A DNA stretch of 64,000 nucleotides from Chloroflexota bacterium (GTDB lineage: Bacteria; Chloroflexota; UBA11872; VXOZ01): assembly GCA_965220015.1 (NCBI GenBank), contig OZ244798.1:1377790-1441789 (forward strand), written 5' to 3'. Below the pieces are notes generated by a model. The model was given only the letters and a program-made list of their open reading frames with translations. It was not told the origin of the DNA and searched no databases. Both the position numbers and the translations under genes were made by a program. Shown one piece after another: positions 4,537 through 64,000 of this stretch (position 1 is its first letter; the number at the start of each line of letters is the position of its first letter).

Positions 4537-4540
<4 letters not shown>
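2795..4540 (+). CDS. Hypothetical membrane protein with a long Gln/Ala/Glu-rich low-complexity (coiled-coil-like) region; first gene of the MoxR-DUF58-VWA operon
   Basis: 581-aa ORF. The N-terminal third has 3-4 predicted TM helices ([67 protein letters not shown]). Next comes ~250 aa of Q/A/E-rich sequence ([35 protein letters not shown]). The stop overlaps the moxR start (ATGA). The start is uncertain: 2795 is TTG, an alternative is GTG at 2819, and no strong RBS is present. Confidence 0.6.
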
Positions 4541-5534
<994 letters not shown>

Positions 5535-5538
<4 letters not shown>

Positions 5539-6422: not shown

Positions 6423-8266
6423 GCTTGCTGGTCCCATTGGCTCTCGCGTGGGGAGCGCTCGCGGGGCTGGTCTTGCTCTTCTACATACTGCGGCCGCGCA
6501 GCCTGCGCATTGAAGTGCCAAGCATCTTCCTTTGGCGCGACTTGGTGCAACGCGAGCAGGCGCTCACCTTGTGGCAGCGGCTGCGCAGACACCTCCTGCT
6601 GTTCCTCCAACTCCTCGCCATTCTCTTGCTGGCCCTTGTGCTGGCGCGTCCGGAGCGCACGGCAGACTCCCTCCCTCAACGGCACGTGGTGCACGTCATC
6701 GATGCCTCCGCCAGCATGAGCGTGGCCTTCGGGAACACCACGCGGCTGGAAGAAGCGAAGGCCGCCGCGCTTGCGCAGGTAGAGATCGTCGAACCGGGCG
6801 ATCTGCTCACAGTGATGTCATTTGGCAGCCAGCCAGCGGTCCTCTCGTACCAGAATCGAGAGTTGCAAGCCGCGCGCGCTGCTGTCGAGAGCATAACGCA
6901 GACTGCCACGGTGGGGGATACGGAACGCGCATTGCAGTTAGCTATTTCTCTCGCAGATTCTCTGCCCGGTAGTGAGGTCTTTCTCTACACTGACGGTAGT
7001 TTCCCCGCGCCCGCCGTGCCTGAGACTGTGAACACGACTGTGAATTTCGTCCGCGTGGGTACACCGGCCGACAATCAGGGAATCAGCGCCTTTGCCATTC
7101 GCCGTCACCTGGAGAGTCTCCAGGCCTTCGTACAGGTGCAGAACTACAGCGGACAATCAGTCACCGTGCCGCTGGTTATGTTGGCAGACGGGCAGCCGCT
7201 GGAACGACGCGAAATCACACTGGCTCCGTACCCGGAGCCCGGCTCGTCGCTTGACCTGCTCTTTGGTGACTTTCCTGCCGGCACGTCACGTGTGGACGTG
7301 GTGCTGGACCACGAGGATGCGCTGGCGGCGGACGACCGCACCGCGTCGATCCTCATGCCGCCGCCGGTGCTGCGGGCGCTGTTGGTCTCAGATTCACCCT
7401 TCTTTCTCAGCACCGTCTTCGCGCCGCTGCCAAACCTTGCGCTTGACCATGTGCGTCCCGTGGAGTTTCGCCCGGCGGACGTCTATGATCTTTACATCTT
7501 CGACGGCTGGCTGCCAGCGGAGCTCCCGCCGGGCAATTGGCTAATCATCAATCCTCCCCCAGGGTCGCCGATCTTGCCGGTGAGCGGCGAAATGTTTGAA
7601 CCGCCGCTGGAATATGTGGCGCAGGGCCACCGCCTTTTGCAGTTTGTGGATATTCGCGATTTGCGCGTGTCGCGGGCGCAACGCATGGAGTTGCCTGCCT
7701 GGGCGGACGAGCTCATAGGGAGCAATCGCGGGCCGCTGGTGTTCAGCGGGACGATTGACGGCCGGCGCATGGTAGTCTTTTCGTTTTCGATTGTGCAGAG
7801 CAACTTGCCGTTGCGCACGGCGTTTCCCGTGTTGATGGGAAACATCTATCAGTGGCTCAATCCGTACCGCATTCAAGAGACAGTTTCTCACTTTCAGCCT
7901 CAGGATGTGATAGAGCTGGGACTGCATCCGCATGCCGACCGCTTGGTGGTTGAGAGGCCTGACGGCGGGCGCATTTCCTTCGGCGGCAGGCAGCGCATTC
8001 CATTCTCCGCCACGGAGGAACTTGGCGTCTATCGCGTGGTGCACTATGCGGGAGAGCAGGAAGTTTACCGTGAAGTCTTCATCGTTAGTCTCCAGGACAT
8101 AACGGAAACCAACGTCGGCGCCCAGGTGCCGGCGCTCGCGAGCGGCGGAGCTGCGGTACCGCCCATTGAACTGCCGGTCTTCCAAGAGATGTGGCGGTTC
8201 TTGGCGCTCGCAGCGCTCTTACTCTTGCTCTGCGAATGGGTGTGGTATCACCGGGTGCGCACGTAG
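6419..8266 (+). CDS. BatA-like N-terminal membrane domain + von Willebrand factor A domain protein
   Basis: N-terminus MSLLVPLALAWGALAGLVLLFYILRPRSLRIEVPSIFLW matches the aerotolerance BatA N-terminal domain. The VWA MIDAS-like block is HVVHVIDASASMSV. A C-terminal TM helix is present. The start was moved to the ATG at 6419, which overlaps the DUF58 stop; the ORF track starts at 6368. Confidence 0.8.
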   Translation: MSLLVPLALAWGALAGLVLLFYILRPRSLRIEVPSIFLWRDLVQREQALTLWQRLRRHLLLFLQLLAILLLALVLARPERTADSLPQRHVVHVIDASASMSVAFGNTTRLEEAKAAALAQVEIVEPGDLLTVMSFGSQPAVLSYQNRELQAARAAVESITQTATVGDTERALQLAISLADSLPGSEVFLYTDGSFPAPAVPETVNTTVNFVRVGTPADNQGISAFAIRRHLESLQAFVQVQNYSGQSVTVPLVMLADGQPLERREITLAPYPEPGSSLDLLFGDFPAGTSRVDVVLDHEDALAADDRTASILMPPPVLRALLVSDSPFFLSTVFAPLPNLALDHVRPVEFRPADVYDLYIFDGWLPAELPPGNWLIINPPPGSPILPVSGEMFEPPLEYVAQGHRLLQFVDIRDLRVSRAQRMELPAWADELIGSNRGPLVFSGTIDGRRMVVFSFSIVQSNLPLRTAFPVLMGNIYQWLNPYRIQETVSHFQPQDVIELGLHPHADRLVVERPDGGRISFGGRQRIPFSATEELGVYRVVHYAGEQEVYREVFIVSLQDITETNVGAQVPALASGGAAVPPIELPVFQEMWRFLALAALLLLLCEWVWYHRVRT

Positions 8267-8268
8267 CA

Positions 8269-11001
8269 ATGCTTGCTTACTTTTCACAGCCATGGCTGCT
8301 CCTCCTGATCCCGCTGGCATGGATCGTAGTCATCTTGGTTGCCCGGCGTGGCGTGATGCAGCTTTCGCGGCGCACTCTCGTCTTGGCCACGACCCTGCGG
8401 CTGATAGCGATTGCCCTGCTTGTCTTGGCATTGGCCGGACTACGACTGCCGTTGTCAGGCGGACCGGTCAACACGATCTTCTTGCTGGACACCTCTGCGA
8501 GCATCCTGCCCGGGACTCAGGCCGCAGCCCGGCAGTGGATTGAAAGGGCGGCCGCACAGCGCGCGCCCGATGACAGCGTGGCGCTCTTGACATTTGGCGC
8601 GGGCACGCGCATCGACCAACCCTTTAGCCGTGGCGGCATTGGTGAGAGTGAAACCGCGGCCATTGTCGAAGAACGCACGAACATTGCGGACGCGTTGCGA
8701 ATGGCCGCGTCGCTGTTCCCACCCGACGCGCCGAAGCGAATCGTCTTGCTCTCTGACGGCAACCAAACCGCGGGTGACGTCATGCGCGCGGCGGAAGTCA
8801 TCGCGGCCCAGGGTGTGCAAGTGGACGTGGTGCCGCTCCTCGCGGAACCGGGGATCGATGCCGCCGTCACCGAGGTCGCGCCTCCGAATGCCCTACGGGA
8901 AGATGAAAACTTCGAAGTGCGGGTTACGGTGGCTGCCACGACCCAGGGCGAGGCGGTGCTGCGGCTGTTCATGAACGAAACGCTCGTGAGCGAGGGACCG
9001 GTTAGGCTGGAGTACGGCCAGAATTACTTTACAATCCAACAGCCTGGTATCGAAGAAGGGTTCTACTCATTTCGCGCCCAGGTGGTCGCGTCGGATGACC
9101 AGCGCCCGCAGAACAACGATGCGTATGGCTATTCACAAGTGGGGCCCAAGGGTCTCGTGCTGGTGGTAGAAAACATCGTTGGTGACGCAATCATACTTAC
9201 CCAGGCCCTCCAAGCAGCCGGAATCCAGGCGCAGAATGTCACGCCGGCCCAGTTGCCGACTCGCCCGGAAGATCTTGACGGCGTGTCCAGCGTGGTGCTC
9301 GTCAACGTCCCTGCCTCCCAGCTTACCGAACAGCAAATGCAGGCGCTCCAGGACTTTGTGAAGAGCTTTGGCGGCGGTCTCGTAGCGCTCGGCGGCGCTG
9401 CGTCATTCGGCATGGGCGATTATGGCGGCACGCCTTTGGAACATGCGCTGCCCGTCATCTCGCAGCCGCCGGACCATGAGGAATTGCCGACTCTCGCGCT
9501 GGCGCTCCTCATCGATAAATCAGGCAGCATGAACGAGGGCGCTCCGGTCTCCAAGATTGCCATGGCACGTGAAGCGGCGGCGCAGGCAGTTGAGATTCTG
9601 GAGAGCGGCGACGTGCTGGGCGTGCTGGCATTCGAATACTCGCCGCAGTGGGTGGTACGGCCCGCGCCGGTAAATGACGCCGAAGACGCGCAGAATGTTG
9701 TGCGGCGGGTTTCAACCATCGAGGCCGGGGGCGGCACCGACATCTACAACGCCTTGCAGCTTGCTTACGATACGCTCCGCCGTACGCCCGCGCAGGTGAA
9801 GCACATCATTCTCGTAACAGATGGGCAGTCCACTTCCGCGCCCGGCCTATGGGATGTCTTGATGACCCGCATGCGCCGCGACCACATTACGCTTTCAGCA
9901 GTGGCGATAGGGGCGGACGCCGATCAAATTCTGTTGCAGCGGCTGGTGCGGCTGGGTGACGGCAGGTACTACTATGCCGACGTGCCGGAGAACATTCCTC
10001 AGGTCGTGACAAAAGAGAGTCAGCGCGCGAGCCGCTCGCTGGTCATGAGCCGGCTCTTCCAGCCCCGGGTGGTAACGGCCAGCCCGATTTTGCGCGCAAT
10101 CTTGCCCGATTCCTTGCCCAATCTCTCCGCTTTCGTGCGTACAGAGCCAAAACCGGCCGCGGAGACACCGCTACTTTCTGACACTAGTGATGTGATATTG
10201 GCGCAATGGCAGTATGGTCTGGGCCGGGCGGTGGCGTGGACAAGCGATGCCGGCCAAGATTGGGCGGCAGACTGGGGTGAATGGCCCCAGAACCAGCAAT
10301 TCTGGGCGCAAATGGTGCGGTGGACAATGCCGAGTCCGCTCAATCCGCAACTGGCGACACAGGTACAGGTTGACGGTAGCGAGGTGACGGTGGCGGTGGA
10401 TTCGGTGGATGAGCAGGGCAACATTCGCAACTTGCTCAACACGCAAGTAGAGGTGGCAGGCCCGGAACAACGCGCCTTCTCACTCAACTTGCCGCAGACG
10501 GCGCCGGGGCGTTACGCAGGCACGCTGAATGTGGATAAAGCCGGTGTGTATGCCCTGCGCATAACGCAGTACGATGGCGATACGCCGGTGGTGGAGCAGA
10601 TTACGGGCGCCGTCGTGCCGGTTGCAGCCGAGTTCTTGAGCTTTGAGACCGACTATCGGCTCTTGCGGCGTTTGGCTACGGTCACAGGCGGGAAAGCACT
10701 GACGAGCGCGGCGGAGGCATTCCGACATGACCGGCCGCCGCCGGAGGGCTACAACCGGCCCTTCTGGCAGCCACTTGTAGTAATCGCGTTGATCCTGTTC
10801 GTTGCCGATATCGGTGTGCGCCGCCTGCGGTTTACCTGGTATGAGCTTGGGATATTTGGGTCAGTCGTGCGGTCGTTGCGCTTGCCGCGGCTAGGCGCTC
10901 CCTTGCAACGCGAGTTGCAACAGCAACTGCGGCAAGTGTCGCGCATGCGTTGGTTCGCGGGGCTGCAGTCCTGGTGGCAGCGCGTACCTAAGCGGTCCTA
11001 G
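8269..11001 (+). CDS. Large VWA-domain membrane protein (two vWFA domains with a GATase1-like middle domain)
   Basis: N-terminal TM helices and two VWA blocks (TIFLLDTSASILPG and ALLIDKSGSMNEG), then TVSTIEAGGGTDIYNAL, and a C-terminal TM helix. The ATG at 8269 lies 3 nt after the upstream stop; the ORF track start 8191 overlaps the previous gene. Confidence 0.8.
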   Translation: MLAYFSQPWLLLLIPLAWIVVILVARRGVMQLSRRTLVLATTLRLIAIALLVLALAGLRLPLSGGPVNTIFLLDTSASILPGTQAAARQWIERAAAQRAPDDSVALLTFGAGTRIDQPFSRGGIGESETAAIVEERTNIADALRMAASLFPPDAPKRIVLLSDGNQTAGDVMRAAEVIAAQGVQVDVVPLLAEPGIDAAVTEVAPPNALREDENFEVRVTVAATTQGEAVLRLFMNETLVSEGPVRLEYGQNYFTIQQPGIEEGFYSFRAQVVASDDQRPQNNDAYGYSQVGPKGLVLVVENIVGDAIILTQALQAAGIQAQNVTPAQLPTRPEDLDGVSSVVLVNVPASQLTEQQMQALQDFVKSFGGGLVALGGAASFGMGDYGGTPLEHALPVISQPPDHEELPTLALALLIDKSGSMNEGAPVSKIAMAREAAAQAVEILESGDVLGVLAFEYSPQWVVRPAPVNDAEDAQNVVRRVSTIEAGGGTDIYNALQLAYDTLRRTPAQVKHIILVTDGQSTSAPGLWDVLMTRMRRDHITLSAVAIGADADQILLQRLVRLGDGRYYYADVPENIPQVVTKESQRASRSLVMSRLFQPRVVTASPILRAILPDSLPNLSAFVRTEPKPAAETPLLSDTSDVILAQWQYGLGRAVAWTSDAGQDWAADWGEWPQNQQFWAQMVRWTMPSPLNPQLATQVQVDGSEVTVAVDSVDEQGNIRNLLNTQVEVAGPEQRAFSLNLPQTAPGRYAGTLNVDKAGVYALRITQYDGDTPVVEQITGAVVPVAAEFLSFETDYRLLRRLATVTGGKALTSAAEAFRHDRPPPEGYNRPFWQPLVVIALILFVADIGVRRLRFTWYELGIFGSVVRSLRLPRLGAPLQRELQQQLRQVSRMRWFAGLQSWWQRVPKRS

Positions 11002-24406: not shown

Positions 24407-25327
24407 CTACCGCCGGTACGACCACACGTCGTTGTAGAGGGTGTCGCCAAAGCCGCCGATCAGCCACAGCTTTTCGCGGTACGTCAGGCAGACCGGCGCG
24501 TGACGAATGGGCCAGATGGGATCGCCGACGGCTTCCACCCAATGCGCGCCGTCGGCAGAAAACCAGACGTCGTTGCGGTTACCGTGGGTGTGGCCGCCGA
24601 TGATCCACAGCTTGTCGTCATACACAGCCGAAGCGTGGAAGCGCCGCTCTTGCCAGGCTGCGGCCACGGCTACCATCTCCCACGACTTGCCGTCGGTCGT
24701 ACACCACACGTCGTTGTGGTTTACTACGGTGTTGTTGGGGTAGTTCGTGTTGTACACGCCGCCGCCCATGAGCCACATCTTTCCGTCGAAAACCACGGAA
24801 GTCTGCATGCTGCGGGCGCTCCACGGCGCATGTTCCTCCACCAAGTCCCAGTGCTTGCCGTCGGTCGAGGTCCAAACGTCCTGGTAGTGGTGGGATTTCT
24901 CGATATCGAAACCGCCGAACAGCCACATTCTGCCATCGTATACGACGGCTGAGGCGGCGCTCCGTTTTCCCCACGGCGCGTCCAATGTAGCGGCTTCCCA
25001 GTGCTTGCCGTCGGTGGAACACCAGACGTCGTTGTACGAGACGTGTGGGTTATCCGCGCCGGCGAAAATCCAGATTTTGTCATTGTAGACGAGCGTACAG
25101 GGGAGATTGCGTGGCGCCCACGGCGCGGACGGCGTAACCTCTTCCCAATTGACGCCGTCGGACGACGACCACACGTCATTGACGCGGGTGGGGATGAAGC
25201 CTCCCAGGAACCACATCTTGTCCTGAAAGACCGCCCAGCCCATCGAGTCGCGTCTCGTCCATGGGGCTTCGGCTGTTTCTTGATTCCAAGCGACCGCAAC
25301 CGCTTGGCCTGCCGATTCTGTTTGCAT
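24407..25327 (-). CDS. Kelch-repeat beta-propeller protein
   Basis: Six repeats of the pattern ...NDVW.S.DG..W..... (for example NDVWSSSDGVNWEEV, NDVWCSTDGKHWEAA, QDVWTSTDGKHWDLV). GAGGAA RBS 4 nt before the ATG. Confidence 0.8.
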   Translation of the reverse strand: MQTESAGQAVAVAWNQETAEAPWTRRDSMGWAVFQDKMWFLGGFIPTRVNDVWSSSDGVNWEEVTPSAPWAPRNLPCTLVYNDKIWIFAGADNPHVSYNDVWCSTDGKHWEAATLDAPWGKRSAASAVVYDGRMWLFGGFDIEKSHHYQDVWTSTDGKHWDLVEEHAPWSARSMQTSVVFDGKMWLMGGGVYNTNYPNNTVVNHNDVWCTTDGKSWEMVAVAAAWQERRFHASAVYDDKLWIIGGHTHGNRNDVWFSADGAHWVEAVGDPIWPIRHAPVCLTYREKLWLIGGFGDTLYNDVWSYRR

Positions 25328-28281: not shown

Positions 28282-29640
28282 CTAGAATAGCCGTCCTAGT
28301 AGCTCAACCGCGCACTCTTCCATCGCAGGCCCGGTGCCGACTCCGCCGAGCGACGAATAGCCGGCCCACGTTTCATAGCCGCCGTGCTCGGTCAGGGCCT
28401 TATCCGTGCACACATAGCCAATGTAACCGTTAGCCAGGCTCACTACGAATTGCGGAGAAGCGGGCGAATGCTGCTTGATGTTCAGGCCAAACTCCACAAA
28501 GATCTCGCCGGGCAAGGCGACAATTGATGCGTCTCCCAGACGCAGGGCTTGCACCGGCGCGGTGTGCGTAATCGGCATTTTGGCCAAGCGTTGGCACTCA
28601 ACTGCGTAAACGTCTGAAAGTTGACTCGGTAATGTTTGACCGACCACCCAGCTAAACGGACCGGAATCGTAATCGGAGTACGTTCCTGCGGGAACCGCCA
28701 GGATCTTCTCAGCCATGGCAAGGTCCTCGTCCGTGATGTCCTTGCGCTTGAAGTCGAAAGTGCCGACTGCGGCCCCAAGCACGAGCTCGTCCTGCATCTC
28801 CATGAGTTGAATCTCAGTGATGAGGTGGCCGGCAAGCACGTTTGCCATCTTAGCGGCTTGCTCGTGGCCGCTCGCGGTCCACTTGCGCTTGCCGCTGTAG
28901 TCATTGTTGTTGATGTCGCCCGAAGTACCGTTCCAGACCATGCCGACACATTGCGGGTCAAGGTAGCGTTGAATGAGCCGGTGGAAGTGCCCAAAGTAGT
29001 CTGCGGAAATGGCGAGGCCGTTGTCCGTGCCTACGTAGTGGAGGACGAAATTTGACACGGCGGCGATGGGCCGTCCGTCCGCCCCTTCGACGTAGAGCAT
29101 GGTGACTTCGGGATCTTTGGGATAGGTTGGCTTAACGAGGTCGGGATTGCCCGCGCCCGGGTTCATGCGCACGGTGCCGTCGCGCATGTGCCAGCGGCGG
29201 TTGAACGAGATGCGGTCCTCGTGAGCAGTGGCAAAGCCGATGCGCGCAGCCTGCAGGCGGTGAGTAGCTATTTCTACGGCATCCGCCATTTTGAGCGGCG
29301 CCCACTCGACATAGGCCTTGTCCTCGCCGGTGCCGAGGAGATCGGCAACGCCGGCGGCCGTATGGGTATGCGTCGCGTTGATCATGACGTTTTCGGGAGG
29401 GATGTCGCAGCGCGCGGCGATGCGCTCTTTGGCCCGGTCCGCCATCCCTTGGGGCATCACGATGAGGTCGCACGTAACAAGCGCAATCCGCATCTCGCCA
29501 TTGTCGATCACCAACGCCTTGGCCAGGAGCTCGTCGTCGACATGTTCGGCGTAGCGCGTACGATGGCTTCCCGGCACCTCTATGCCCAGCCACGGTGTGA
29601 TATTTGCCGTGGCAGCGCCGGCTTGCAGTGATGTACTCAC
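28282..29640 (-). CDS. Neutral/alkaline ceramidase N-terminal-domain-like hydrolase (paralog 1)
   Basis: AGAATANITPWLGIEVPG ... ALVIDNGEMRIALVTCDLIVMP ... NATHTHTAAG matches the neutral-ceramidase catalytic-domain pattern (GAAxxDITP ... HTHSGP). The start was set to the GTG at 29640, preceded by AAAGGAG at an 8-nt spacing. This parallels the paralog N-terminus MSGQLRAGAATANLTPW. Confidence 0.7.
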   Translation of the reverse strand: MSTSLQAGAATANITPWLGIEVPGSHRTRYAEHVDDELLAKALVIDNGEMRIALVTCDLIVMPQGMADRAKERIAARCDIPPENVMINATHTHTAAGVADLLGTGEDKAYVEWAPLKMADAVEIATHRLQAARIGFATAHEDRISFNRRWHMRDGTVRMNPGAGNPDLVKPTYPKDPEVTMLYVEGADGRPIAAVSNFVLHYVGTDNGLAISADYFGHFHRLIQRYLDPQCVGMVWNGTSGDINNNDYSGKRKWTASGHEQAAKMANVLAGHLITEIQLMEMQDELVLGAAVGTFDFKRKDITDEDLAMAEKILAVPAGTYSDYDSGPFSWVVGQTLPSQLSDVYAVECQRLAKMPITHTAPVQALRLGDASIVALPGEIFVEFGLNIKQHSPASPQFVVSLANGYIGYVCTDKALTEHGGYETWAGYSSLGGVGTGPAMEECAVELLGRLF

Positions 29641-29895
29641 GAGCGTCACTCCTTTTGTTCGCTTGCCCGGACTTGTCCACTGTAGACGCAAGTATAGCGT
29701 AGAATGATGTCAAACGGAATGGCAGAGATTCCTGATCTGGCCCACCGACAGCATGTAAGTCTGCCATGACTTGGGATGGAGAATCACTAGGCTCGAAGCT
29801 CAGTACATCCGGTCGCGCCAGCGCACCATTGACAGCCGCAGCGCCAACGTCTTACGATGTTTGCAGACCCTACAGTGTAGTAAGGATTGCTACCG

Positions 29896-30546
29896 ATGCT
29901 AAGATTTGCTGAAGAAATCATGCTGCTCCTTCTCGATGATGAGAGTGGAGAATTCGCGCATATTCCCGAATGGTCGCTACGGTACGCCCTGGCAGGCGCG
30001 GTGCTGATGGACATTGCGCTGGAAGACCGAATCGACACCGATCCGAAGCAGCTTACCTTGCTGAACCCGACCCCGACCGGGGACGACTTGCTCGATCCGA
30101 CCCTGGAGAGCATCGCGCAAGCAACCGAAGGGCACGACATCTGCCATTGGATCGAACACACGGCTGAGAGTGCGTACTCGATCCGCGACAAAGCGATGAA
30201 GAGACTTATCATGCACGGCATTCTAGAGAGTCGCGATGATCGCTTTCTCTGGGTGTTCCGTTCGCGGCGTTACCCAATCGTTGACGGCAAGGCCGAGCGG
30301 GAAGTGAAGCTGCGGATCATGGAAGTACTCTTTAGCGACGTGATCCCCGACCCGCGCGACATCGTGATTATCTGCCTGGCAGACGCTTGCGGCATCTTTC
30401 GAATGCTACTGTCCAAGCAGGAGTTGAAGCTCGCCGCCGCGCGCATCGAACAGGTACGCAAGCTTGACCTTATCGGCCAGGCGGTCTCGCAGGTGGTGTG
30501 GAACATCGAGGCATCCCTAGCGCTCTCCATGCACCCGATGGCATAG
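29896..30546 (+). CDS. GPP34 / GOLPH3-like family protein
   Basis: MLRFAEEIMLLLLDDESGEF...LRYALAGAVLMDIALEDRI matches the N-terminal signature of bacterial GPP34 (Golgi phosphoprotein 3-like, PF05719) proteins. ATG at 29896 is preceded by TAAGGA 9 nt upstream. Transcribed divergently from ceramidase-like paralog 1. Confidence 0.7.
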   Translation: MLRFAEEIMLLLLDDESGEFAHIPEWSLRYALAGAVLMDIALEDRIDTDPKQLTLLNPTPTGDDLLDPTLESIAQATEGHDICHWIEHTAESAYSIRDKAMKRLIMHGILESRDDRFLWVFRSRRYPIVDGKAEREVKLRIMEVLFSDVIPDPRDIVIICLADACGIFRMLLSKQELKLAAARIEQVRKLDLIGQAVSQVVWNIEASLALSMHPMA

Positions 30547-30595: not shown

Positions 30596-31972
30596 TTAGC
30601 GGCTTTGCTGCGGAAGCGAGTGGCAAAGGCTAGCTAGTTGCCGACCGGCAACGGCGGCAAGTTGCTCAGCCGTGCCTGATGCGGCGATGGAGTGCGGTGA
30701 GGCCCAGGTCTCATAGCCGCCCTGCTGTTCCAGCGCCTCTTGCGTACATATGTACCCCAAGTAGTCATTGGCAAGTTCAGCGACGAGCGTGGGGTGAAAG
30801 GGGCTCTGCCCCTTGATGGCGAGGCCCGTTGCGGCAAAGATTTCGCCAGGCAGCGCCACCAGGGCAGCGTTCCCAACGCGTAGCGATTGTACGCGCGTAT
30901 CCAAGACCTCCGGCATTGCCGCTAGGTCTATACATGCTTGCGCGTAGACTTCGATGTGCTTTTCCCACACCGGCTGTCCGACTACCCAGCTAAAGGGGCC
31001 GGAATCATAGGTGAATGTGGTGGGGTCTTCTAGGATCCGGCGGGCCGTAACGACGTCTTCAGCCGTGATGCGCTTGCGTGTGTAGGGAACCGTCGCCAGT
31101 ACGGCGTCCAATGGACACGAGTCGTGCAGTTCGATGAGTTGCGTCTCTTTAAGGACATGTCCCGCGAGCACTGCGGCCATCTTGCACGCTTGGGCATGGC
31201 CGCTTTCGCCCCATGTCCGCCGGCCGCTGTAGTCAACATTGTTGATGTCGCCTGACGTGCCGTTTTGGAGAATTGGCAGGCACTGTGGGCCGAGCACACG
31301 CTGCAATTCCGCGGTGAAGTGACCGTAGTAGTCGGCGGAGAGTGCCGTTGGCGAGTCGGCGCCAACGTAGTGGAGCGCAAAAGTGGCAAATAGGGCCAGC
31401 GGCGTCCCTGCCACATCTTCCAAGTACAGGAAGCTCAACGCAGGATCGATTGTGCCGGCGGGACGCACACTGTTGGGATTCCCAACCCCGGGAATCATCT
31501 CTACCGTGCCGTCGCGCATCCACCAGCGCCGGTTAAAGCTGATGCGATCTTCCCGCGCTTCTCCCCAGCCGATACGCGCAGGCCGGAGCCCGTTTACTGC
31601 CAATTGCACCGCGTCCGCGATCTTGGCCGGTACCCACTCAACATACGCCGGGTCTTCGTTCACGCCGAGCGCGGTACGCACTGCGGGTCCGCTGTGGGTA
31701 TGCGTAGCGCAGATAAGCAGGTGGCTGGGCGGGATGCCGCTGTTCTTCGCTACGCGTTCCTTAACCGCATCGGCAATGCCCCTGGGCATGCAGACAAAGT
31801 CACAGACGACGATGCCAATCCTATTCTCGCCGTCATCCAGCACCAACGCCTTCGCATGAATTTCGTCATGAACGTCTGTTGCCTGCCGCTGTCCAAAGCC
31901 TCCGCAAAGGGCAATATCCAGCCAGGGGGTCAAGTTGGCAGTTGCGGCGCCTGCGCGAAGCTGGCCTGACAT
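30596..31972 (-). CDS. Neutral/alkaline ceramidase N-terminal-domain-like hydrolase (paralog 2)
   Basis: RAGAATANLTPWLDIALCGG ... ALVLDDGENRIGIVVCDFVCMP ... CATHTHSGPAV. Collinear with paralog 1 over the full length. The start was set to the ATG at 31972 (MSGQL...), with AAAGG upstream. Confidence 0.7.
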   Translation of the reverse strand: MSGQLRAGAATANLTPWLDIALCGGFGQRQATDVHDEIHAKALVLDDGENRIGIVVCDFVCMPRGIADAVKERVAKNSGIPPSHLLICATHTHSGPAVRTALGVNEDPAYVEWVPAKIADAVQLAVNGLRPARIGWGEAREDRISFNRRWWMRDGTVEMIPGVGNPNSVRPAGTIDPALSFLYLEDVAGTPLALFATFALHYVGADSPTALSADYYGHFTAELQRVLGPQCLPILQNGTSGDINNVDYSGRRTWGESGHAQACKMAAVLAGHVLKETQLIELHDSCPLDAVLATVPYTRKRITAEDVVTARRILEDPTTFTYDSGPFSWVVGQPVWEKHIEVYAQACIDLAAMPEVLDTRVQSLRVGNAALVALPGEIFAATGLAIKGQSPFHPTLVAELANDYLGYICTQEALEQQGGYETWASPHSIAASGTAEQLAAVAGRQLASLCHSLPQQSR

Positions 31973-32111
31973 AATGTATGTGCCTTTTGCTTGCTGCACA
32001 GCAGCGGGGCGCGTGCGAGACCTGCCGTGCCCCTGTGAGCAAGAAACGCCGCGCTAGTGCGACTCTCTCCCAGGATGGCAGGCGGCATCAACTAGAGCAA
32101 ATCCTGCCGAG

Positions 32112-47779: not shown

Positions 47780-49363
47780 TTGACTGTGTCCGCTTCCACC
47801 GACACAATTCTTGCGCGCGCGGCGTTTGTGCTGCTGCTCGGCAACGTGCTGAGCCGCGTGCTTGGGCTAGTGCGCGAGCAGACCATTGCCTATCTCTTTG
47901 GCGCCAGTGCCGCGACCGACTCATTCGTGGCGGCGACCCAAGTGCCGACGATGGTCTACGATCTGCTGCTGGGCGGTGCGGTGACGGCGGCGTTGGTTCC
48001 AGTCTTTGCCGACTATGCGCGGAATGACCGTGAATTCTCCGCTTTGTTGGGCGCTATGTTTGCCATGGCGGGTGTGGTGCTTGGCGGCGCGGTGATACTG
48101 CTCTTGCTGCTGGCGGAACCGTTAGTCCGCATTCTTGTCCCCGGGTTTTCGCCCGATGTCCTCGATCAGACCGTCAAGTTGACCCGCCTCGCCGTGCCCG
48201 CGGTCGCCTTTCTCGGTTTTTCAGGCGTGGTCAACGCGGCGCTCTACGCCGGACACCGACCCTACTATCCGGCCTTTTGTGCCGCGGTTTACAACCTCGG
48301 CATCATTCTCACCGCCGTGTTCTTTGTGAATCGTCTTGGCGTAACCAGCCTCGTCATCGGCGTGCTCGTAGGCTCGGCAGGGCAGCTCGTATTCCAGGCG
48401 CCGGGGCTGTGGCGGATGGGAATTCGCCCGCGCGCGGTCTTGTCTCATCCGGGTGTGAAACAGATCCTGGGACTGTACGCGCCTGTGCTTGCCGGGCTCA
48501 TTATCACGCAACTCGCCATCGTGCTGGACCGCAACCTGGCATCACGCACCGGCGACGGCAGTATCGCTGCGATGAACTATGCAACCCGGCTGGTACAGCT
48601 TCCGCTCGGACTTGTGGGCTCCGCGATTGCTCTGGCCGTGCTGCCGCTGCTGGCTGCTGAAGGCGGCAACCTCGATACGGCGAACTTCCGGCGCATTCTC
48701 AGCCAGGGGGTGCGGCTCATTCTGCTGTTGATGTTGCCCATCTTTGCGCTGATGCTAATTTGGCACCGGCCCATTGTTGAGCTTGTCTACCTACGCGGCG
48801 CGTTCGATGCTGCCGATGCGAGCGTTACCGGCCTGGCCCTCTTGCTTTACAGCCTGCAACTGCCGCTCACGGGCCTGGACCAACTCTTTATCTTTGCCTA
48901 CTATGCGCGCAAGAATACGCGTACTCCGGTCTTGGTTGGCGTTCTCGGCATCGGCTTTTATCTGGCCGTTGCGTTACCGCTGTTGCAACCGCTCGGCATG
49001 CCGGGGCTTGTGCTGGCAAATACGGTGCAGAATGGCGGCCATGCGCTCGTGATGCTCTGGCTGCTCCATCGTCTCCTTGGCGGTGTAGGCGGCGCTGGCT
49101 TTGGACGATTCTTTGCCACGATTGGCGCCGGCACATTGCTCGTTGCGCTGGCAGCGGGCGGCATGCTCTATGTGCTGCGTGTGCTTACAGAGGGGGCCGG
49201 CACGATTGGCTTGTTGGCAGTGGTTGTGGGCGGTGGCGGCGTGTTGCTGCTTGCGTACTTTGGAGTCTTGCGCCTGTGCAGACTGCCGGAGCTGACGCTC
49301 TTGGCCGAAATGGCGCCCGCTCGGATGCGGGCCGCGGTGCAGCGCTCCCACGAACGGGCTTAG
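47780..49363 (+). CDS. murJ: Lipid II flippase MurJ (MviN)
   Basis: LLLGNVLSRVLGLVREQTIAYLFGASAATDSFVAATQVPTMVYDLLLGG and 14 TM segments. The TTG start at 47780 is uncertain; GTG at 47786 is an alternative. Confidence 0.88.
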   Translation: MTVSASTDTILARAAFVLLLGNVLSRVLGLVREQTIAYLFGASAATDSFVAATQVPTMVYDLLLGGAVTAALVPVFADYARNDREFSALLGAMFAMAGVVLGGAVILLLLLAEPLVRILVPGFSPDVLDQTVKLTRLAVPAVAFLGFSGVVNAALYAGHRPYYPAFCAAVYNLGIILTAVFFVNRLGVTSLVIGVLVGSAGQLVFQAPGLWRMGIRPRAVLSHPGVKQILGLYAPVLAGLIITQLAIVLDRNLASRTGDGSIAAMNYATRLVQLPLGLVGSAIALAVLPLLAAEGGNLDTANFRRILSQGVRLILLLMLPIFALMLIWHRPIVELVYLRGAFDAADASVTGLALLLYSLQLPLTGLDQLFIFAYYARKNTRTPVLVGVLGIGFYLAVALPLLQPLGMPGLVLANTVQNGGHALVMLWLLHRLLGGVGGAGFGRFFATIGAGTLLVALAAGGMLYVLRVLTEGAGTIGLLAVVVGGGGVLLLAYFGVLRLCRLPELTLLAEMAPARMRAAVQRSHERA

Positions 49364-56914: not shown

Positions 56915-56990
56915 TGGTACCCCGTGAGCGACTCGAACGCTCGACCCCTGGCTCCGCAAGCCAGTGCTCTATCCACTGAGCTAACGGGGC
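56915..56990 (-). tRNA. tRNA-Arg (anticodon read as GCG)
   Basis: Minus-strand sequence GCCCCGTTAGCTCAGTGGATAGAGCACTGGCTTGCGGAGCCAGGGGTCGAGCGTTCGAGTCGCTCACGGGGTACCA folds as a cloverleaf. Acceptor 7 bp with G1-U72. D arm GCTC/GAGC. Anticodon stem CTGGC/GCCAG with loop TTGCGGA. T arm GAGCG/CGCTC with TTCGAGT. Encoded CCA. Confidence 0.8.
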
Positions 56991-60319: not shown

Positions 60320-60394
60320 TGGAGCGGGCAATGGGATTCGAACCCACGATCTCAACCTTGGGAAGGTCGCATGTTACCACTACACCATGCCCGC
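60320..60394 (-). tRNA. tRNA-Gly (anticodon CCC)
   Basis: Minus-strand sequence GCGGGCATGGTGTAGTGGTAACATGCGACCTTCCCAAGGTTGAGATCGTGGGTTCGAATCCCATTGCCCGCTCCA. Acceptor GCGGGCA/TGCCCGC. Anticodon loop TTCCCAA. T loop TTCGAAT. Encoded CCA. Confidence 0.85.
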
Positions 60395-61530: not shown

Positions 61531-64000
61531 CTACCGTTGCGCTGGGGGGATTTGCAGGCGCTGCCCGACTGAGATCACATTCGGATCTTCGATCTGGTTG
61601 AGTTCCGCGAGCGCATTCACTGTGACGCCAAACTGTTGAGCAATCGACGTGAGCGTGTCTCCGGCCTGCACGACGTATTCAGTAGTTGGCGGAGTCGCAG
61701 GCGGCGTAGGCGCTGCAGAGGGAGGGACGCCCGGTGTTGGTGAGGGCGCGGATGGCGGCTGCGCCGTTGGCGAAGGCTGCGCCGCGGGAGATGATTGCGC
61801 CGCGGGCGAAGTTGGCGCCACGAGCAACTGTGGCGTTGGGGACGGCGACGAAGGCGCCTGCATTTCCGCTTCAACCGATACTTCGCCCGATGCACTGGTG
61901 GTCTCGGGATACCAGAGGCCCCGCGTCGCGAATGTGACGCCGATGATCACCGCAACAGCCAAGAAAACTACACCTCTCGCAAGTCCCTGTTCGCCTACGA
62001 GCGGGGTTCTCGTACCGGCAGGGAGAAGCGGCCACCAGTTAGCTTTTATGGAAGCCGGCCACCAGTTCGCTCTGCCGACCAACGTTACAATCCCCGGCAC
62101 GAGGAGCGAGCGGACAACTAACGCATCTATGAGGATGCCCAGCGCGACAGCCGCACCCATTTGGAAGAGCATCTGCAGCGGCGATGCCGTAAGCGCGGCA
62201 AAGGTTCCGGCGAGGATGACACCGGCGGCCGTAATGATCGCCCCGGTGCGCGCCGAAGCTACGCGTACACCTTCCCGCAGCGGCAACGACGCACTTTCTT
62301 CCCGAATGCGGTGCACCAAGAAGACATTGTAGTCCGCCCCGAGCGCGATGAGCATGACCATGACCGTCAAGGGCAAGAGGTAGTACACACCCTCGTGCCC
62401 GAGGATGCCTTGGAAGAACAGGGTAGAGAGTCCCAAGCTGCTGCCGTACGAGAATACGACGGTGCCAACTAGATAAAGGGGGGCGACCAGGCTGCGGAGC
62501 AGGATGGCGAGGACAGCAAAGATGCCCACCACGGTAACAATGCCCACTGTCTGCAGGTCTTGACGGACCACCCGCTGAATGTCGGTGATCTCTGCAGTGG
62601 ATCCACCTACGAAAACCCTTGCCGAGCCCAAAGGCCCGTCGCGATTTTGCTCCACAGTTTCTCGGACTGCGTCTAACGCGTTGATTGCCCTTGCGCTAAG
62701 TGGGTCTTCCTTAAGAATGACAAAGAAGCGGATTGTCTTTGTATCTTCAGAGAAGAAGAGGGGCATGATGGCGCTCGAGGCCTGCTCCACGCCGGGGAGT
62801 TCGGTGGGAATGAAGTAGGGGTGGGGATACGCCGCGAAAACTTCACGCAATGCGGTGAGCGCATCCGCCACGCTGCGCATAGCCTCAGGAATTGGAGCCT
62901 CCGTCGTCTGCTGCAAGGCTGCCCCGCTTGGAAAGAAAACCGCCCCCGGCTTATCGGCAAAGAAGCCGGCCAGCAGCTCTAGCTGGGCTGCAACTCCACT
63001 AAGAGATGCTTGAATTTGGGCTTGCTGCGCCGCTCGTTGCTGCGCTGAGAGATTGGAAGACGTAGACGCATTCTGTGCCGCCTGCTGAATCGTATTCAGA
63101 ATTCTCGTTGATTCCACATACGAGGGGTGTGCGGCAACGTCCGGAAAAGCTTCGGATAATTCCGCGAGGTAGCTGCTCAGCGAAGCCAGCACCGTTGCGG
63201 GATCAGCCGGACTTTGAGAGGGTGCGGGTCGGCGTAGCTGGTCGGCCATTTGCCGTAGCTGCGTGGCAGGATGCGCTTGGGTGCGAAGAGCGGCAGTGGT
63301 CCCTGACAAGTTCGTAAGCGCTTCCCTCGTTTGAAGAAATTCGGGGGCTTGCGCAACTTCAGGGAAAGAGTCTGCAAGTTCATCCACGTACCGTTGTAAT
63401 GTGCTTACTTGGGCCGTAGCTTCTTCGATCAGGCGCGCGGCCGGTGCGTCTTCACCCACAACGGGAGCACGCAATGAATCAGCAATTTGGTCAAGCTGCG
63501 CAGGGACCGTGAAGGCAGTAACGGCGCCATCGCCAATGGGGTCTATGATGCTGCGCATCTGATTCACAGATTCCAATGCCAAGAGGTCTTCCTGCAGCGA
63601 GGCGATCGCGCGCAGATACGGCGTAGATGTAAGGTCGCTGCTTTCGGGTAACTCGAGCAGCACGGCAGCGGGCGCGAACTCTCCCTGCGGAAAATGCTTG
63701 GCAATGGCATCGAATCCCTGACGTGAATCGGTGCTCTTTGGCAGCGACGCCAGCATCGCCAAATTCTCGCGATACTGCAGGAGACCCAGGTACGGAATGG
63801 CAAGGGCCACGGTGATGACAAGCACTAGCACGAACGGGCGTCTGGCCACCAGGTTGCTAATACCCACCCAAAAGGCAGTCGGTTGTGTGTTTTCAACGCT
63901 CGTCTTGCGGGGCCAGAAGAGATGACGGCCAAAGAGAGAAAGCAAGGCTGGCGTAAGCGTAAGCCCGGCGAGAAGCGTGATGCCTACGGCTAAGGCCAGA
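61531..64000 (-). CDS. MMPL-family (RND-superfamily) transporter with a C-terminal Pro/Ala/Thr-rich linker and LysM domain; N-terminus lies beyond the window edge
   Basis: The minus-strand frame is open to position 64000 (...LALAVGITLLAGLTLTPALLSLFGRHLFWPRKT is the MMPL TM6/GRxxFWP junction). A large extracytoplasmic domain follows. The second TM bundle is (ITAAGVILAGTFAALTASPLQMLFQMGAAVALGILIDALVVRSLLVPGIVTLVGRANWWP). Then comes a P/A/S/T linker and LysM (EYVVQAGDTLTSIAQQFGVTVNALAELNQIEDPNVISVGQRLQIP). Confidence 0.8.
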   Translation of the reverse strand, partial: LALAVGITLLAGLTLTPALLSLFGRHLFWPRKTSVENTQPTAFWVGISNLVARRPFVLVLVITVALAIPYLGLLQYRENLAMLASLPKSTDSRQGFDAIAKHFPQGEFAPAAVLLELPESSDLTSTPYLRAIASLQEDLLALESVNQMRSIIDPIGDGAVTAFTVPAQLDQIADSLRAPVVGEDAPAARLIEEATAQVSTLQRYVDELADSFPEVAQAPEFLQTREALTNLSGTTAALRTQAHPATQLRQMADQLRRPAPSQSPADPATVLASLSSYLAELSEAFPDVAAHPSYVESTRILNTIQQAAQNASTSSNLSAQQRAAQQAQIQASLSGVAAQLELLAGFFADKPGAVFFPSGAALQQTTEAPIPEAMRSVADALTALREVFAAYPHPYFIPTELPGVEQASSAIMPLFFSEDTKTIRFFVILKEDPLSARAINALDAVRETVEQNRDGPLGSARVFVGGSTAEITDIQRVVRQDLQTVGIVTVVGIFAVLAILLRSLVAPLYLVGTVVFSYGSSLGLSTLFFQGILGHEGVYYLLPLTVMVMLIALGADYNVFLVHRIREESASLPLREGVRVASARTGAIITAAGVILAGTFAALTASPLQMLFQMGAAVALGILIDALVVRSLLVPGIVTLVGRANWWPASIKANWWPLLPAGTRTPLVGEQGLARGVVFLAVAVIIGVTFATRGLWYPETTSASGEVSVEAEMQAPSSPSPTPQLLVAPTSPAAQSSPAAQPSPTAQPPSAPSPTPGVPPSAAPTPPATPPTTEYVVQAGDTLTSIAQQFGVTVNALAELNQIEDPNVISVGQRLQIPPAQR

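What the first reader, a model, noticed from the sequence alone, without database searches (positions are those of the whole stretch)
61531..64000. MMPL-family transporter fused to a C-terminal proline-rich linker and LysM peptidoglycan-binding domain
The minus-strand ORF continues beyond the window edge and shows MMPL/RND hallmarks. After the last TM bundle it carries ~60 aa of P/A/S/T-rich linker (SPSPTPQLLVAPTSPAAQSSPAAQPSPTAQPPSAPSPTPGVPPSAAPTPPATPP) and a canonical LysM (GDTLTSIAQQFGVTVNALAELNQI).

From the standard 12-TM MMPL topology the C-terminus should be cytoplasmic, yet LysM binds peptidoglycan. This implies either an extra TM or unusual topology, or a gene fusion or assembly artefact. 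Either way it is an atypical domain combination for a lipid or siderophore exporter family.
Basis: partly seen in the sequence, partly recalled or inferred. Interest (0 to 1): 0.5.

Follow-up and report, generated by a model that had tools for sequence, protein, structure and literature searches.

The report
Wall-tethered MMPL exporter with 13th helix
A membrane lipid or siderophore exporter of an uncultured Chloroflexota bacterium carries one extra membrane-crossing helix that puts a flexible linker and a cell-wall-binding LysM domain outside the cell, so the odd-looking fusion is real, topologically sensible and conserved, but confined to one small clade.

Summary
The minus-strand ORF 61531..>64000 is open to the window edge. 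It is the C-terminal 822 residues of a 1140-aa protein; database protein P0274 ends with exactly this sequence. It matches Pfam MMPL (E 4e-68 on the fragment, 2e-126 full length) and LysM (E 6e-17).

The topology paradox is resolved by a 13th transmembrane helix (window 61918-61986, GLARGVVFLAVAVIIGVTFATRG). It lies after the TM12 "WWP" motif and before the linker. It is as hydrophobic as the protein's other TM helices, has Arg/Lys on its N-terminal side and acidic residues after it, and is conserved.

The fusion is not an artefact. All 16 genome loci examined, several of them closed 3.3-3.7 Mb chromosomes, and about 37 protein clusters carry one uninterrupted ORF. TM13 and LysM are conserved, while the linker varies in sequence and length, always in frame.

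The core is closest to mycobacterial MmpL4/MmpL5, has a helical insertion at the position of their coiled coil, and keeps both Asp-Tyr proton-relay pairs. The window also encodes MurJ, so the cell makes peptidoglycan.

The most likely reading is a proton-driven exporter tethered to its own cell wall. The substrate is unknown. It is a new variant of a known kind, of moderate interest.

The parts
61531..64000 (-). 3' part (822 codons plus stop) of a 1140-codon MMPL-TM13-linker-LysM gene. The 5' 318 codons lie beyond the window edge.
   Evidence: The frame is open to the window edge. The fragment is an exact suffix of P0274, 1140 aa. Pfam finds MMPL twice plus LysM on the full-length protein.
63916..63999 (-). 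End of TM6 (protein residues 319-346), the last helix of the first six-helix bundle.
   Evidence: Kyte-Doolittle hydropathy is 2.0. AlphaFold2 predicts helix 310-346 with pLDDT above 90.
63775..63837 (-). TM7 (residues 373-393). It follows an Arg/Lys-rich cytoplasmic loop.
   Evidence: Hydropathy is 2.68, and the preceding loop has 5 K+R against 1 D+E. AlphaFold2 predicts helix 373-393.
62584..63774 (-). Second extracytoplasmic porter domain (PC, residues 394-790), including the helical insertion.
   Evidence: The loop is 412 residues and net acidic. AlphaFold2 gives an alpha/beta porter fold flanking a helical insert. The region aligns to the periplasmic domain of MmpL4/5.
62833..63507 (-). 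All-helical insertion of about 225 residues (483-707) inside the PC domain, at the position of the MmpL4/5 coiled coil. It contains a duplicated Y-x-x-E-L-x-x-x-F-P-[DE]-V-A motif.
   Evidence: AlphaFold2 predicts helices 483-707 with pLDDT 50-94. The phmmer alignment to MmpL4 skips query residues 489-682. The MmpL4 coiled coil is S491-Y685 (PMC11850643). This is the least conserved folded region, at 55% mean identity.
62074..62583 (-). TM8-TM12 (residues 791-960), including the TM10 Asp-Tyr proton-relay pair (GADYNVF, D874/Y875).
   Evidence: Hydropathy peaks. pLDDT is above 90. D874 and Y875 are invariant across 78 MMPLs. Identity within the clade is 94%.
61987..62073 (-). Cytoplasmic connector (residues 961-989): RANWWPASIKANWWPLLPAGTRTPLVGEQ. 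Counted through Arg993, the stretch GRANWWP...GEQGLAR has 4 K/R against 1 acidic residue.
   Evidence: Sequence. The WWP motif ends TM12 in MmpL4 as well (alignment). pLDDT is below 50.
61918..61986 (-). 13th transmembrane helix (residues 990-1012): GLARGVVFLAVAVIIGVTFATRG.
   Evidence: Hydropathy is 2.34 over 19 residues, equal to the protein's other TMs. The helix is present in all 37 clade members examined and all 16 genomes. R1011 and W1014 are invariant. AlphaFold2 predicts helix 989-1009, but with pLDDT of only 44-59.
61684..61917 (-). Disordered P/S/A/T-rich linker (residues 1013-1090).
   Evidence: pLDDT is about 35 with no secondary structure. Composition is 22 P, 13 S, 13 A and 10 T in 77 residues. 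Identity within the clade is 34% and length is 61-78 residues.
61760..61819 (.). 18-bp (6-codon) tandem repeat, 3.3 copies, inside the linker. It encodes the (S/P)SPAAQ-type units.
   Evidence: Tandem Repeats Finder. Near-identical proteins differ by in-frame linker indels in this repeat region.
61546..61677 (-). LysM domain (residues 1093-1136).
   Evidence: Pfam PF01476 at E=6e-17, covering model positions 1-43 of 43. AlphaFold2 gives a beta-alpha-alpha-beta fold with pLDDT 94-96. PDB LysM proteins Ecp6 and a cell-wall endopeptidase are hit. Identity within the clade is 77%.

Best explanation
This is a real, single-gene MMPL (RND-superfamily) exporter of the MmpL4/MmpL5 type. The core has 12 TM helices, two outside porter domains and a long helical stalk inserted in the second porter domain. 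A 13th transmembrane helix, a flexible Pro/Ser/Ala/Thr-rich linker of about 77 residues and one LysM domain have been added at the C-terminus. TM13 runs from the cytoplasmic end of TM12 back across the membrane, so the linker and LysM lie outside, on the same side as the porter domains and the stalk. What is shown is the architecture, its conservation, the intact proton-relay residues and peptidoglycan synthesis capacity in the same genome. What is inferred is the following. The pump uses the proton gradient to move an amphiphilic molecule (lipid, glycolipid or siderophore-like; substrate unknown) out of the membrane. LysM binds the cell's own peptidoglycan. The linker could reach about 20 nm if fully extended. 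The exporter and its stalk would then be fixed at, or aligned with, the wall. The tail probably arose by fusion with a gene for a signal-anchored LysM protein. That would explain why the TM helix came with it, but it has not been shown.
For: Domains: MMPL and LysM score far above the Pfam cut-offs.

TM13: hydropathy is 2.34, within the 2.0-2.7 range of the protein's own strongest TM peaks. It has 4 K/R before it and net acidic sequence after it. It is found in every clade member and is 74% identical across the clade, against 34% for the linker. AlphaFold2 predicts a helix there.

Real fusion: 16 genomes have one ORF each, several being closed chromosomes of 3.3-3.7 Mb. About 37 clusters at 62-99% identity have both domains. 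Linker indels are always in frame and track an 18-bp repeat.

Functional pump: D257/Y258 and D874/Y875 are conserved across 78 MMPLs.

MmpL4/5-like: PDB sequence hits are at E about 1e-83, against 1e-28 for MmpL3. The top 17 Foldseek hits are all MmpL4/5, at E down to 8e-45. A helical insert lies at the coiled-coil position.

Peptidoglycan is present: MurJ lipid II flippase is encoded at window 47780-49363, at E=5e-85.

The layout recurs: other MMPLs have a post-TM12 hydrophobic helix, a linker and an unrelated C-terminal domain.
Against: No dedicated topology predictor could be run. TM13 orientation rests on hydropathy, charge bias and homology to 12-TM structures.

AlphaFold2 confidence for TM13 is low (pLDDT 44-59), so its packing is unknown.

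The charge bias is modest, at 4 against 1.

Nothing here shows that LysM binds peptidoglycan rather than another GlcNAc polymer.

Nothing identifies the substrate. The gene is monocistronic with uninformative neighbours.

No MmpS-like partner gene is adjacent, unlike mmpS4/5-mmpL4/5.

One cluster (P0036) has lost LysM through a frame change in the linker, so the tail may be dispensable, or that assembly may contain an error.

The fusion origin from a separate anchored LysM gene was not supported by the two non-fused homologue loci I looked at.
Confidence: 0.72

Rival explanations
1. Assembly or annotation artefact: two neighbouring genes, an MMPL and a small LysM protein, were joined by a sequencing error or a missed stop in the low-complexity linker.
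For: The linker is repetitive, low-complexity DNA containing an 18-bp tandem repeat, which is the kind of sequence where indel errors occur. One related cluster, P0036, does show a frame change in the linker.
Against: The same uninterrupted ORF is found in 16 independently assembled genomes, including several closed chromosomes, and in about 37 protein clusters from ENA, NCBI, JGI and Logan. Linker lengths differ (61-78 residues) but always keep the frame. No start codon context or intergenic gap exists between the two parts.
Confidence: 0.02
2. The hydrophobic segment 990-1012 does not cross the membrane. It would be re-entrant or packed against the bundle, so the linker and LysM stay in the cytoplasm, where LysM is inert or binds something else.
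For: AlphaFold2 confidence for the helix is low. The uninterrupted apolar core between Arg993 and Arg1011 is only 17 residues. No topology predictor was run.
Against: Hydropathy equals that of the bona fide TMs. The charge distribution fits an N-in, C-out orientation. Conserved Arg and Trp residues sit at the predicted outer interface. LysM is conserved at 77% under evident selection, and its known ligands are extracytoplasmic. The same helix-linker-domain layout recurs in other MMPLs with the same charge pattern.
Confidence: 0.06
3. The topology is as in the best explanation, but LysM does not tether the pump to the cell's own wall. It binds foreign GlcNAc polymers, such as host chitin or glycans, or fragments of other bacteria's peptidoglycan. 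It would serve adhesion or sensing, or couple export to contact.
For: LysM domains also bind chitin; the PDB hits include the fungal chitin-binding effector Ecp6 and a plant chitin elicitor-binding protein. MAG names among the relatives (SB0662_bin_44, Plut_88905) suggest sponge and coral hosts, but that reading is from memory. The window encodes eukaryote-like proteins: Kelch repeat, GPP34 and ceramidase-like. LysM (CBM50) modules are abundant in sponge Anaerolineae and Caldilineae (PMC6306507).
Against: The linker of about 77 residues reaches roughly the thickness of a cell wall and not much beyond. The organism's own peptidoglycan (MurJ) is the nearest and most abundant ligand. There is a single LysM copy, whereas high-affinity chitin binding usually uses several.
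Confidence: 0.15
4. The tail is made or released as a separate product, by internal translation start or proteolysis in the linker. The mature pump would then be an ordinary 12- or 13-TM MMPL, and the LysM part would act independently.
For: Pro-rich linkers are common protease targets. The P0036 variant lacks LysM.
Against: No conserved internal start or ribosome-binding context was seen. The frame is conserved through a fast-evolving linker in every genome, which argues for selection on covalent linkage.
Confidence: 0.05

Closest known systems
Mycobacterial MmpL4 / MmpL5 (cluster I MmpL siderophore and drug exporters; e.g. PDB 9mvz, 9syt, 9gi0, 8zkp)
   Same: These are the best sequence and fold matches: E about 1e-83 and Foldseek E down to 8e-45. 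Shared features are the 12-TM pseudo-symmetric core, two porter domains, Asp-Tyr relay pairs in TM4 and TM10, and a long helical insertion in the C-terminal porter domain at the position of the 130-angstrom coiled coil.
   Different: Identity is only about 21-24%. The organism is Chloroflexota, not Mycobacteriales. There is no adjacent mmpS-like gene. The extra TM13, linker and LysM are absent from MmpL4/5, which end in the cytoplasm after TM12 (PMC11850643). The substrate is unknown.
MmpL3 / MmpL11 / MmpL13 (cluster II MmpLs with a C-terminal extension)
   Same: Same family. They also carry an extra C-terminal module after TM12. From general knowledge, in MmpL3 that module influences localisation to growth zones.
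   Different: The MmpL3 C-terminal domain is cytoplasmic, with no extra TM. MmpL3 lacks the helical stalk. It is much more distant, at E about 1e-28.
Other MMPLs with a post-TM12 helix and an outside C-terminal module (P0066, P0067, P0070, P0071, P0074, P0077; P0046)
   Same: The layout is the same: the TM12 'FWP/WWP' motif, an Arg/Lys-rich stretch, a hydrophobic helix, a Thr/Ser/Pro/Ala linker and a C-terminal domain.
   Different: The C-terminal module is not LysM. It is either a beta-rich domain of about 190 aa with only a weak DUF3108-like match (E 1.5e-4, below cut-off) or a long Ala/Thr/Gly-rich repeat tail (P0046). Identity to the query is 30-40%. Whether their TM13 is homologous or convergent is not established.
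Signal-anchored single-LysM wall proteins (N-terminal TM, Pro-rich linker, LysM)
   Same: The last 150 residues of this protein have exactly that layout. NCBIfam hits to DipM, SafA, ActS and NlpD-type LysM regions show a standard peptidoglycan-type LysM.
   Different: Here the module is covalently attached to a transporter instead of an enzyme, or standing alone. There is no catalytic domain.
Eukaryotic 13-TM RND relatives (NPC1, NPC1L1, Patched)
   Same: RND-superfamily fold with an odd number of TM helices. They appear as distant Foldseek hits at E about 1e-13.
   Different: From general knowledge, their extra helix is N-terminal, not C-terminal. There is no LysM. The relationship is very distant.

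Membership tests
MMPL family (Pfam PF03176; RND superfamily) | Significant match to the MMPL profile in both halves of the protein | tested here: met
   The window fragment scores 230 bits at E=4e-68. Full-length P0274 scores 422 bits at E=2e-126 with two stretches. TIGR00833 matches at E=9e-98.
MMPL family (Pfam PF03176; RND superfamily) | 12-TM pseudo-symmetric core with large outside loops between TM1-2 and TM7-8 | tested here: met
   The AlphaFold2 model has pTM 0.74 and core pLDDT above 90. Foldseek TM-scores, normalised to the target, are 0.73-0.90 against MmpL4/5. The hydropathy profile agrees.
MMPL family (Pfam PF03176; RND superfamily) | Asp-Tyr proton-relay pairs in TM4 and TM10 | tested here: met
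   In the GTDYSLF motif, D257 is nearly invariant and Y258 is invariant. In the GADYNVF motif, D874 and Y875 are invariant. These counts are over 78 sequences.
MMPL family (Pfam PF03176; RND superfamily) | Proton-motive-force-dependent export of a lipid or amphiphile | not testable with these tools
   This requires transport assays, and the organism is uncultured.
Cluster I MmpL (MmpL4/5-like) | Closer to MmpL4/5 than to MmpL3, with a helical (coiled-coil) insertion in the C-terminal porter domain | tested here: met
   E is 1e-83 against 1e-28. The top 17 Foldseek hits are MmpL4/5. Residues 483-707 are all helical and lie in the gap of the MmpL4 alignment. The coiled-coil definition is from PMC11850643.
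Cluster I MmpL (MmpL4/5-like) | Partner MmpS gene immediately upstream in an operon | tested here: not met
   The upstream gene is a divergent AP_endonuc_2 family gene in the 15 genome loci that include upstream sequence. The 733-bp upstream spacer of L001 has no ORF longer than 80 aa on either strand. A partner encoded elsewhere in the genome cannot be excluded.
Cluster I MmpL (MmpL4/5-like) | Trimerisation through the coiled coil; siderophore or drug substrate | not testable with these tools
   No multimer modelling or biochemistry was available.
LysM domain (Pfam PF01476, CBM50) | Full-length profile match and beta-alpha-alpha-beta fold | tested here: met
   The match is 61.7 bits against a cut-off of 20.9, covering model positions 1-43 of 43. 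AlphaFold2 gives E1091-1094, H1101-1107, H1112-1118 and E1132-1135 with pLDDT 94-96.
LysM domain (Pfam PF01476, CBM50) | Extracytoplasmic location | tested here: inconclusive
   Location is inferred from TM13 by hydropathy, charge bias and conservation. No dedicated predictor or experiment was used, and the AlphaFold2 confidence for TM13 is low.
LysM domain (Pfam PF01476, CBM50) | Binding of GlcNAc-containing glycan (peptidoglycan or chitin) | not testable with these tools
   Only the presence of a likely ligand is supported: MurJ in the window indicates that peptidoglycan is made.

The most novel reading that the evidence does not exclude
This would be a self-contained, wall-anchored export machine. 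An MmpL4/5-type pump carries a coiled-coil stalk held in register with the peptidoglycan by the pump's own LysM tether. The tether would do the job that separate adaptor or MmpS-type partners do in mycobacteria. Further, 'TM13 plus linker plus outside module' would be a general, so far undescribed way in which MMPL transporters of Chloroflexota and Actinomycetota acquire envelope-interacting domains, with LysM in one lineage and a DUF3108-like beta domain in another.
Probability: 0.3. Interest if true: 0.55.

Novelty: new variant of a known kind. Interest (0 to 1): 0.35.

Why it matters
MmpL transporters are studied almost only in mycobacteria. There, recent structures show a long coiled-coil stalk thought to cross the periplasm, and it is still unclear how the pump is positioned relative to the wall.

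A natural MmpL4/5-like protein with a built-in peptidoglycan anchor shows that evolution has linked such a pump physically to the wall. It also offers a simple construct, the pump with and without TM13-LysM, to test whether wall attachment matters for export.

It also shows that cluster-I-type MmpLs with a stalk exist well outside the Actinomycetota. An odd-numbered TM topology is a recurrent way to add outside modules to RND pumps.

The practical lesson for annotation is that a LysM after a 12-TM transporter is not necessarily an error.

Tried and rejected
(1) I ran an exhaustive phmmer search of 1.84 billion representatives with the last 223 residues (TM11 to LysM), to find other MMPL-LysM lineages. 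The top 150 were swamped by multi-LysM proteins. Only P0011, P0039 (same clade) and a fragment, P0170, contained the MMPL tail. The search is therefore uninformative on how widespread the architecture is.

(2) The first homologue search was probably diluted by low-complexity words from the linker. Only 180 of 8000 candidates were significant.

(3) Foldseek against AFDB50, which might have named other proteins with this layout, was not available.

(4) I looked for a fusion precursor, meaning a separate anchored LysM gene downstream of non-fused homologues. Neither P0055 nor P0049 has one. P0055 instead follows two GT87 glycosyltransferase genes.

(5) I looked for an MmpS-like ORF or a riboswitch in the 733-bp upstream spacer of the near-identical locus L001 and found neither. 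The last 120 nt or so before the start codon are moderately conserved and look promoter-like.

(6) Synteny across 15 related genomes is conserved, but the genomes are too closely related for that to indicate function.

(7) Cluster look-up gave no source names or finer taxonomy.

(8) Literature searches for MMPL+LysM, MmpL+peptidoglycan-binding domain and MmpL+13 transmembrane found nothing relevant. One hit uses 'mmpL' for an unrelated metalloprotease.

(9) No consensus terminator was found in the 173-bp convergent spacer after the gene.
Full report
**Observation**

The minus strand of window 61531-63999 translates into 822 codons followed by a stop. There is no internal stop, and the frame is still open at the window edge. 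The ORF list shows only 804 aa, from an internal TTG, because ORFs running off the window are not listed.

Pfam gives MMPL at E=4.1e-68 and LysM at E=6.1e-17, both far above the curated cut-offs. NCBIfam gives TIGR00833 'MMPL family RND transporter' at E=9e-98, matching the C-terminal two thirds of that model.

The fragment is an exact suffix of database protein P0274, 1140 aa, encoded on a 3.56 Mb contig. That protein has both MMPL halves and LysM. A 99%-identical copy, P0001, supplies the missing upstream context as locus L001.

**The topology question**

Kyte-Doolittle hydropathy with a 19-residue window finds the expected helices, and one more after the last MMPL helix: LARGVVFLAVAVIIGVTFA, score 2.34. 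That lies within the 2.0-2.7 range of the protein's own strongest TM peaks. The segment sits between the 'RANWWP...' motif that ends TM12 and the Pro-rich linker. The same motif ends TM12 in MmpL4 in the alignment.

The stretch from the end of TM12 through Arg993 has 4 Arg/Lys against 1 acidic residue. The 15 residues after the helix have 1 Arg against 2 Glu, and the whole tail has 3 K/R against 9 D/E. By the positive-inside rule this fits a helix running from inside to outside.

MmpL4 has 12 TM helices, with porter domains between TM1-2 and TM7-8 (PMC11850643). The query aligns to it through TM12. A 13th helix therefore places the tail on the porter-domain side.

AlphaFold2 was run on a 78-sequence alignment (mean pLDDT 83.9, pTM 0.74). 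It predicts:
- a helix at residues 989-1009;
- a disordered stretch at 1010-1086, with pLDDT about 35;
- a confident beta-alpha-alpha-beta LysM at 1091-1135, with pLDDT 94-96.

The pLDDT of TM13 itself is only 44-59, so its packing is not known. No dedicated topology predictor was available. The orientation is a well-supported inference, not a demonstration.

**Real fusion or artefact**

The homologue search found about 37 clusters at 62-99% identity with both Pfam domains and lengths of about 1120-1140 aa. A scan of one genome per species found 15 further loci in Chloroflexota MAGs, several of them closed chromosomes of 3.3-3.7 Mb.

Each of the 16 loci, including L001, has one uninterrupted ORF with TM13, linker and LysM.

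Mean identity to the reference, by region within the clade:

| Region | Identity |
|---|---|
| TM8-12 | 94% |
| LysM | 77% |
| TM13 | 74% |
| Helical insert | 55% |
| Linker | 34% |

Linker length ranges from 61 to 78 residues. Proteins more than 90% identical to each other differ by in-frame linker indels, with total lengths of 1122-1140 aa. The indels lie in the region of an 18-bp tandem repeat at 61760-61819.

A fast-evolving linker that never loses the frame, joined to conserved TM13 and LysM, is the signature of selection on the whole fusion. One cluster, P0036, has a frame change in the linker and lacks LysM. That is either a sequencing error or a genuine loss.

**What kind of MMPL**

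The closest solved structures by sequence are MmpL4 and MmpL5, at E about 1e-83. MmpL3 is at about 1e-28. By fold, the top 17 Foldseek hits are all MmpL4/5. MmpL3, HpnN and NPC1/Patched follow.

The phmmer alignment to MmpL4 leaves query residues 489-682 unaligned. AlphaFold2 makes 483-707 entirely helical. In MmpL4 the corresponding S491-Y685 is the 130-angstrom coiled coil, which is essential for export (PMC11850643).

The Asp-Tyr pairs of TM4 (D257/Y258) and TM10 (D874/Y875) are invariant or nearly so across 78 MMPLs. The protein therefore looks like an active proton-driven pump.

Unlike mmpS4/5-mmpL4/5, no MmpS-like gene is adjacent:
- The upstream neighbour is a divergent AP_endonuc_2-family gene in every locus that includes upstream sequence.
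- The gene appears monocistronic.
- The 733-bp spacer has no ORF longer than 80 aa and no Rfam match.

**Context**

The window has 59% GC. It encodes MurJ, the lipid II flippase, at 47780-49363 with E=5e-85. The organism therefore makes peptidoglycan, and a ligand for LysM is at hand.

Neighbours of the gene are an SDR, tRNA-Gly, ferritin and two Band-7 proteins, none of which is informative about substrate. Published work on sponge Chloroflexi reports peptidoglycan genes and abundant LysM (CBM50) modules in Anaerolineae and Caldilineae, but not in SAR202 (PMC6306507).

**Mechanism proposed**

Shown:
- the architecture and its conservation;
- the intact relay residues;
- the MmpL4/5-like stalk;
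- a peptidoglycan-making host.

Inferred:
- the pump exports an amphiphile whose identity is unknown;
- TM13 takes the chain back outside;
- the linker of about 77 residues, roughly 20 nm if extended, lets LysM reach and bind the cell's own peptidoglycan;
- this fixes the pump and its stalk relative to the wall.

A fusion with a signal-anchored LysM gene would explain why a TM helix came with the domain. The two non-fused homologue loci I inspected do not have such a gene downstream, so this remains conjecture.

**Rivals**

- An artefact is effectively excluded.
- A non-spanning helix with a cytoplasmic LysM is unlikely but not formally excluded.
- LysM binding foreign glycans, such as host chitin, is possible given the probable host-associated lifestyle.
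- Separate expression or cleavage of the tail is unsupported.

**Comparison and novelty**

The protein meets the tested defining features of the MMPL family and of LysM. It resembles cluster I MmpLs, except for the missing adjacent MmpS gene.

The C-terminal TM13-linker-LysM addition is not in any solved or described MmpL I could find.

It is, however, one case of a wider pattern. Other MMPL homologues at 30-40% identity also have a hydrophobic helix after TM12, with Arg/Lys before it, followed by a Thr/Ser/Pro/Ala linker. They end in either a beta-rich domain of about 190 aa (weak DUF3108-like match, below cut-off) or a long repeat tail.

How many other lineages combine MMPL with LysM could not be determined. 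The exhaustive tail search was swamped by multi-LysM proteins, and AFDB50 was unavailable.

**Verdict**

This is a real and conserved feature whose topology makes sense. It is a new variant of a known kind. It is of moderate interest to transporter and cell-envelope specialists and is otherwise ordinary.

Noticed in passing
P0066, P0067, P0070, P0071, P0074, P0077 (also P0065, P0076, P0078-P0081); not in the window: More distant MMPL homologues (30-40% identity) also have a hydrophobic helix after TM12, then a Thr/Ser/Pro/Ala linker. They end in a conserved beta-rich C-terminal domain of about 190 aa (GxWRYxxxGxRKxGxAGSxQPFSED...). That domain has only a weak, sub-threshold DUF3108-like Pfam match (E 1.5e-4). 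It may be an undescribed outside module of MMPL pumps.
   Followed up: partly
P0046 (1388 aa, Chloroflexi MAG); not in the window: This is the closest non-LysM relative that has a 13th helix. It is followed by a tail of about 380 aa made of Ala/Thr/Gly-rich repeats (xxGAxxLAxG-type) with no significant Pfam match.
   Followed up: partly
window 47780-49363 (+): MurJ lipid II flippase (Pfam E=4.9e-85). It shows that the genome encodes peptidoglycan synthesis, which matters for the LysM ligand.
   Followed up: yes
window 24407-25327 (-), 28282-29691 (-), 29887-30546 (+), 30596-31999 (-): A cluster of eukaryote-like genes: a Kelch-repeat protein, two neutral/alkaline ceramidase-like proteins and a GPP34 (Golgi phosphoprotein 3) family protein. 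Together with MAG names among the relatives that suggest sponge and coral sources (that reading is from memory), this hints at a host-associated lifestyle.
   Followed up: no
window 4537-11001 (+): A MoxR AAA ATPase, DUF58, BatA and VWA gene row, which is a Bat/aerotolerance-like operon. The last gene encodes a 936-aa protein with two VWA domains and a GATase1-like domain.
   Followed up: no
window 61760-61819: An 18-bp tandem repeat (3.3 copies) inside the linker-coding region. Near-identical strains differ by in-frame indels here, so the linker length is polymorphic at strain level, with total protein lengths of 1122-1140 aa.
   Followed up: yes
L050 2920-7922 (locus of P0055): A non-LysM MMPL paralogue-like gene comes from an assembly accession (ERZ25039480) numerically close to that of L001 (ERZ25067264). 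Its best local match to the query is 58% identical over 23% of it. It lies directly downstream of two GT87 (PimE-like mannosyltransferase family) genes in the same orientation, which suggests glycolipid export for that relative.
   Followed up: no
L001 9268-10000 and the equivalent regions of L002-L016: There is a long non-coding spacer upstream of the MMPL-LysM gene, 733 bp in L001. The last 120 nt or so are moderately conserved and contain a TTGTAG...TAGAAT promoter-like pair. L001 has an insertion of about 300 nt that is absent from the more distant genomes. No Rfam family matches.
   Followed up: partly
P0036 (1105 aa): One clade member has a frame change within the linker. It ends in an unrelated Arg/Ala/His-rich tail and lacks LysM. 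This is either an assembly error or a natural loss.
   Followed up: no
window 56915-56990 (-) and 60320-60394 (-): tRNA-Arg(GCG) and tRNA-Gly(CCC). The tRNA-Gly lies between the ferritin and SDR genes, just downstream of the finding.
   Followed up: yes
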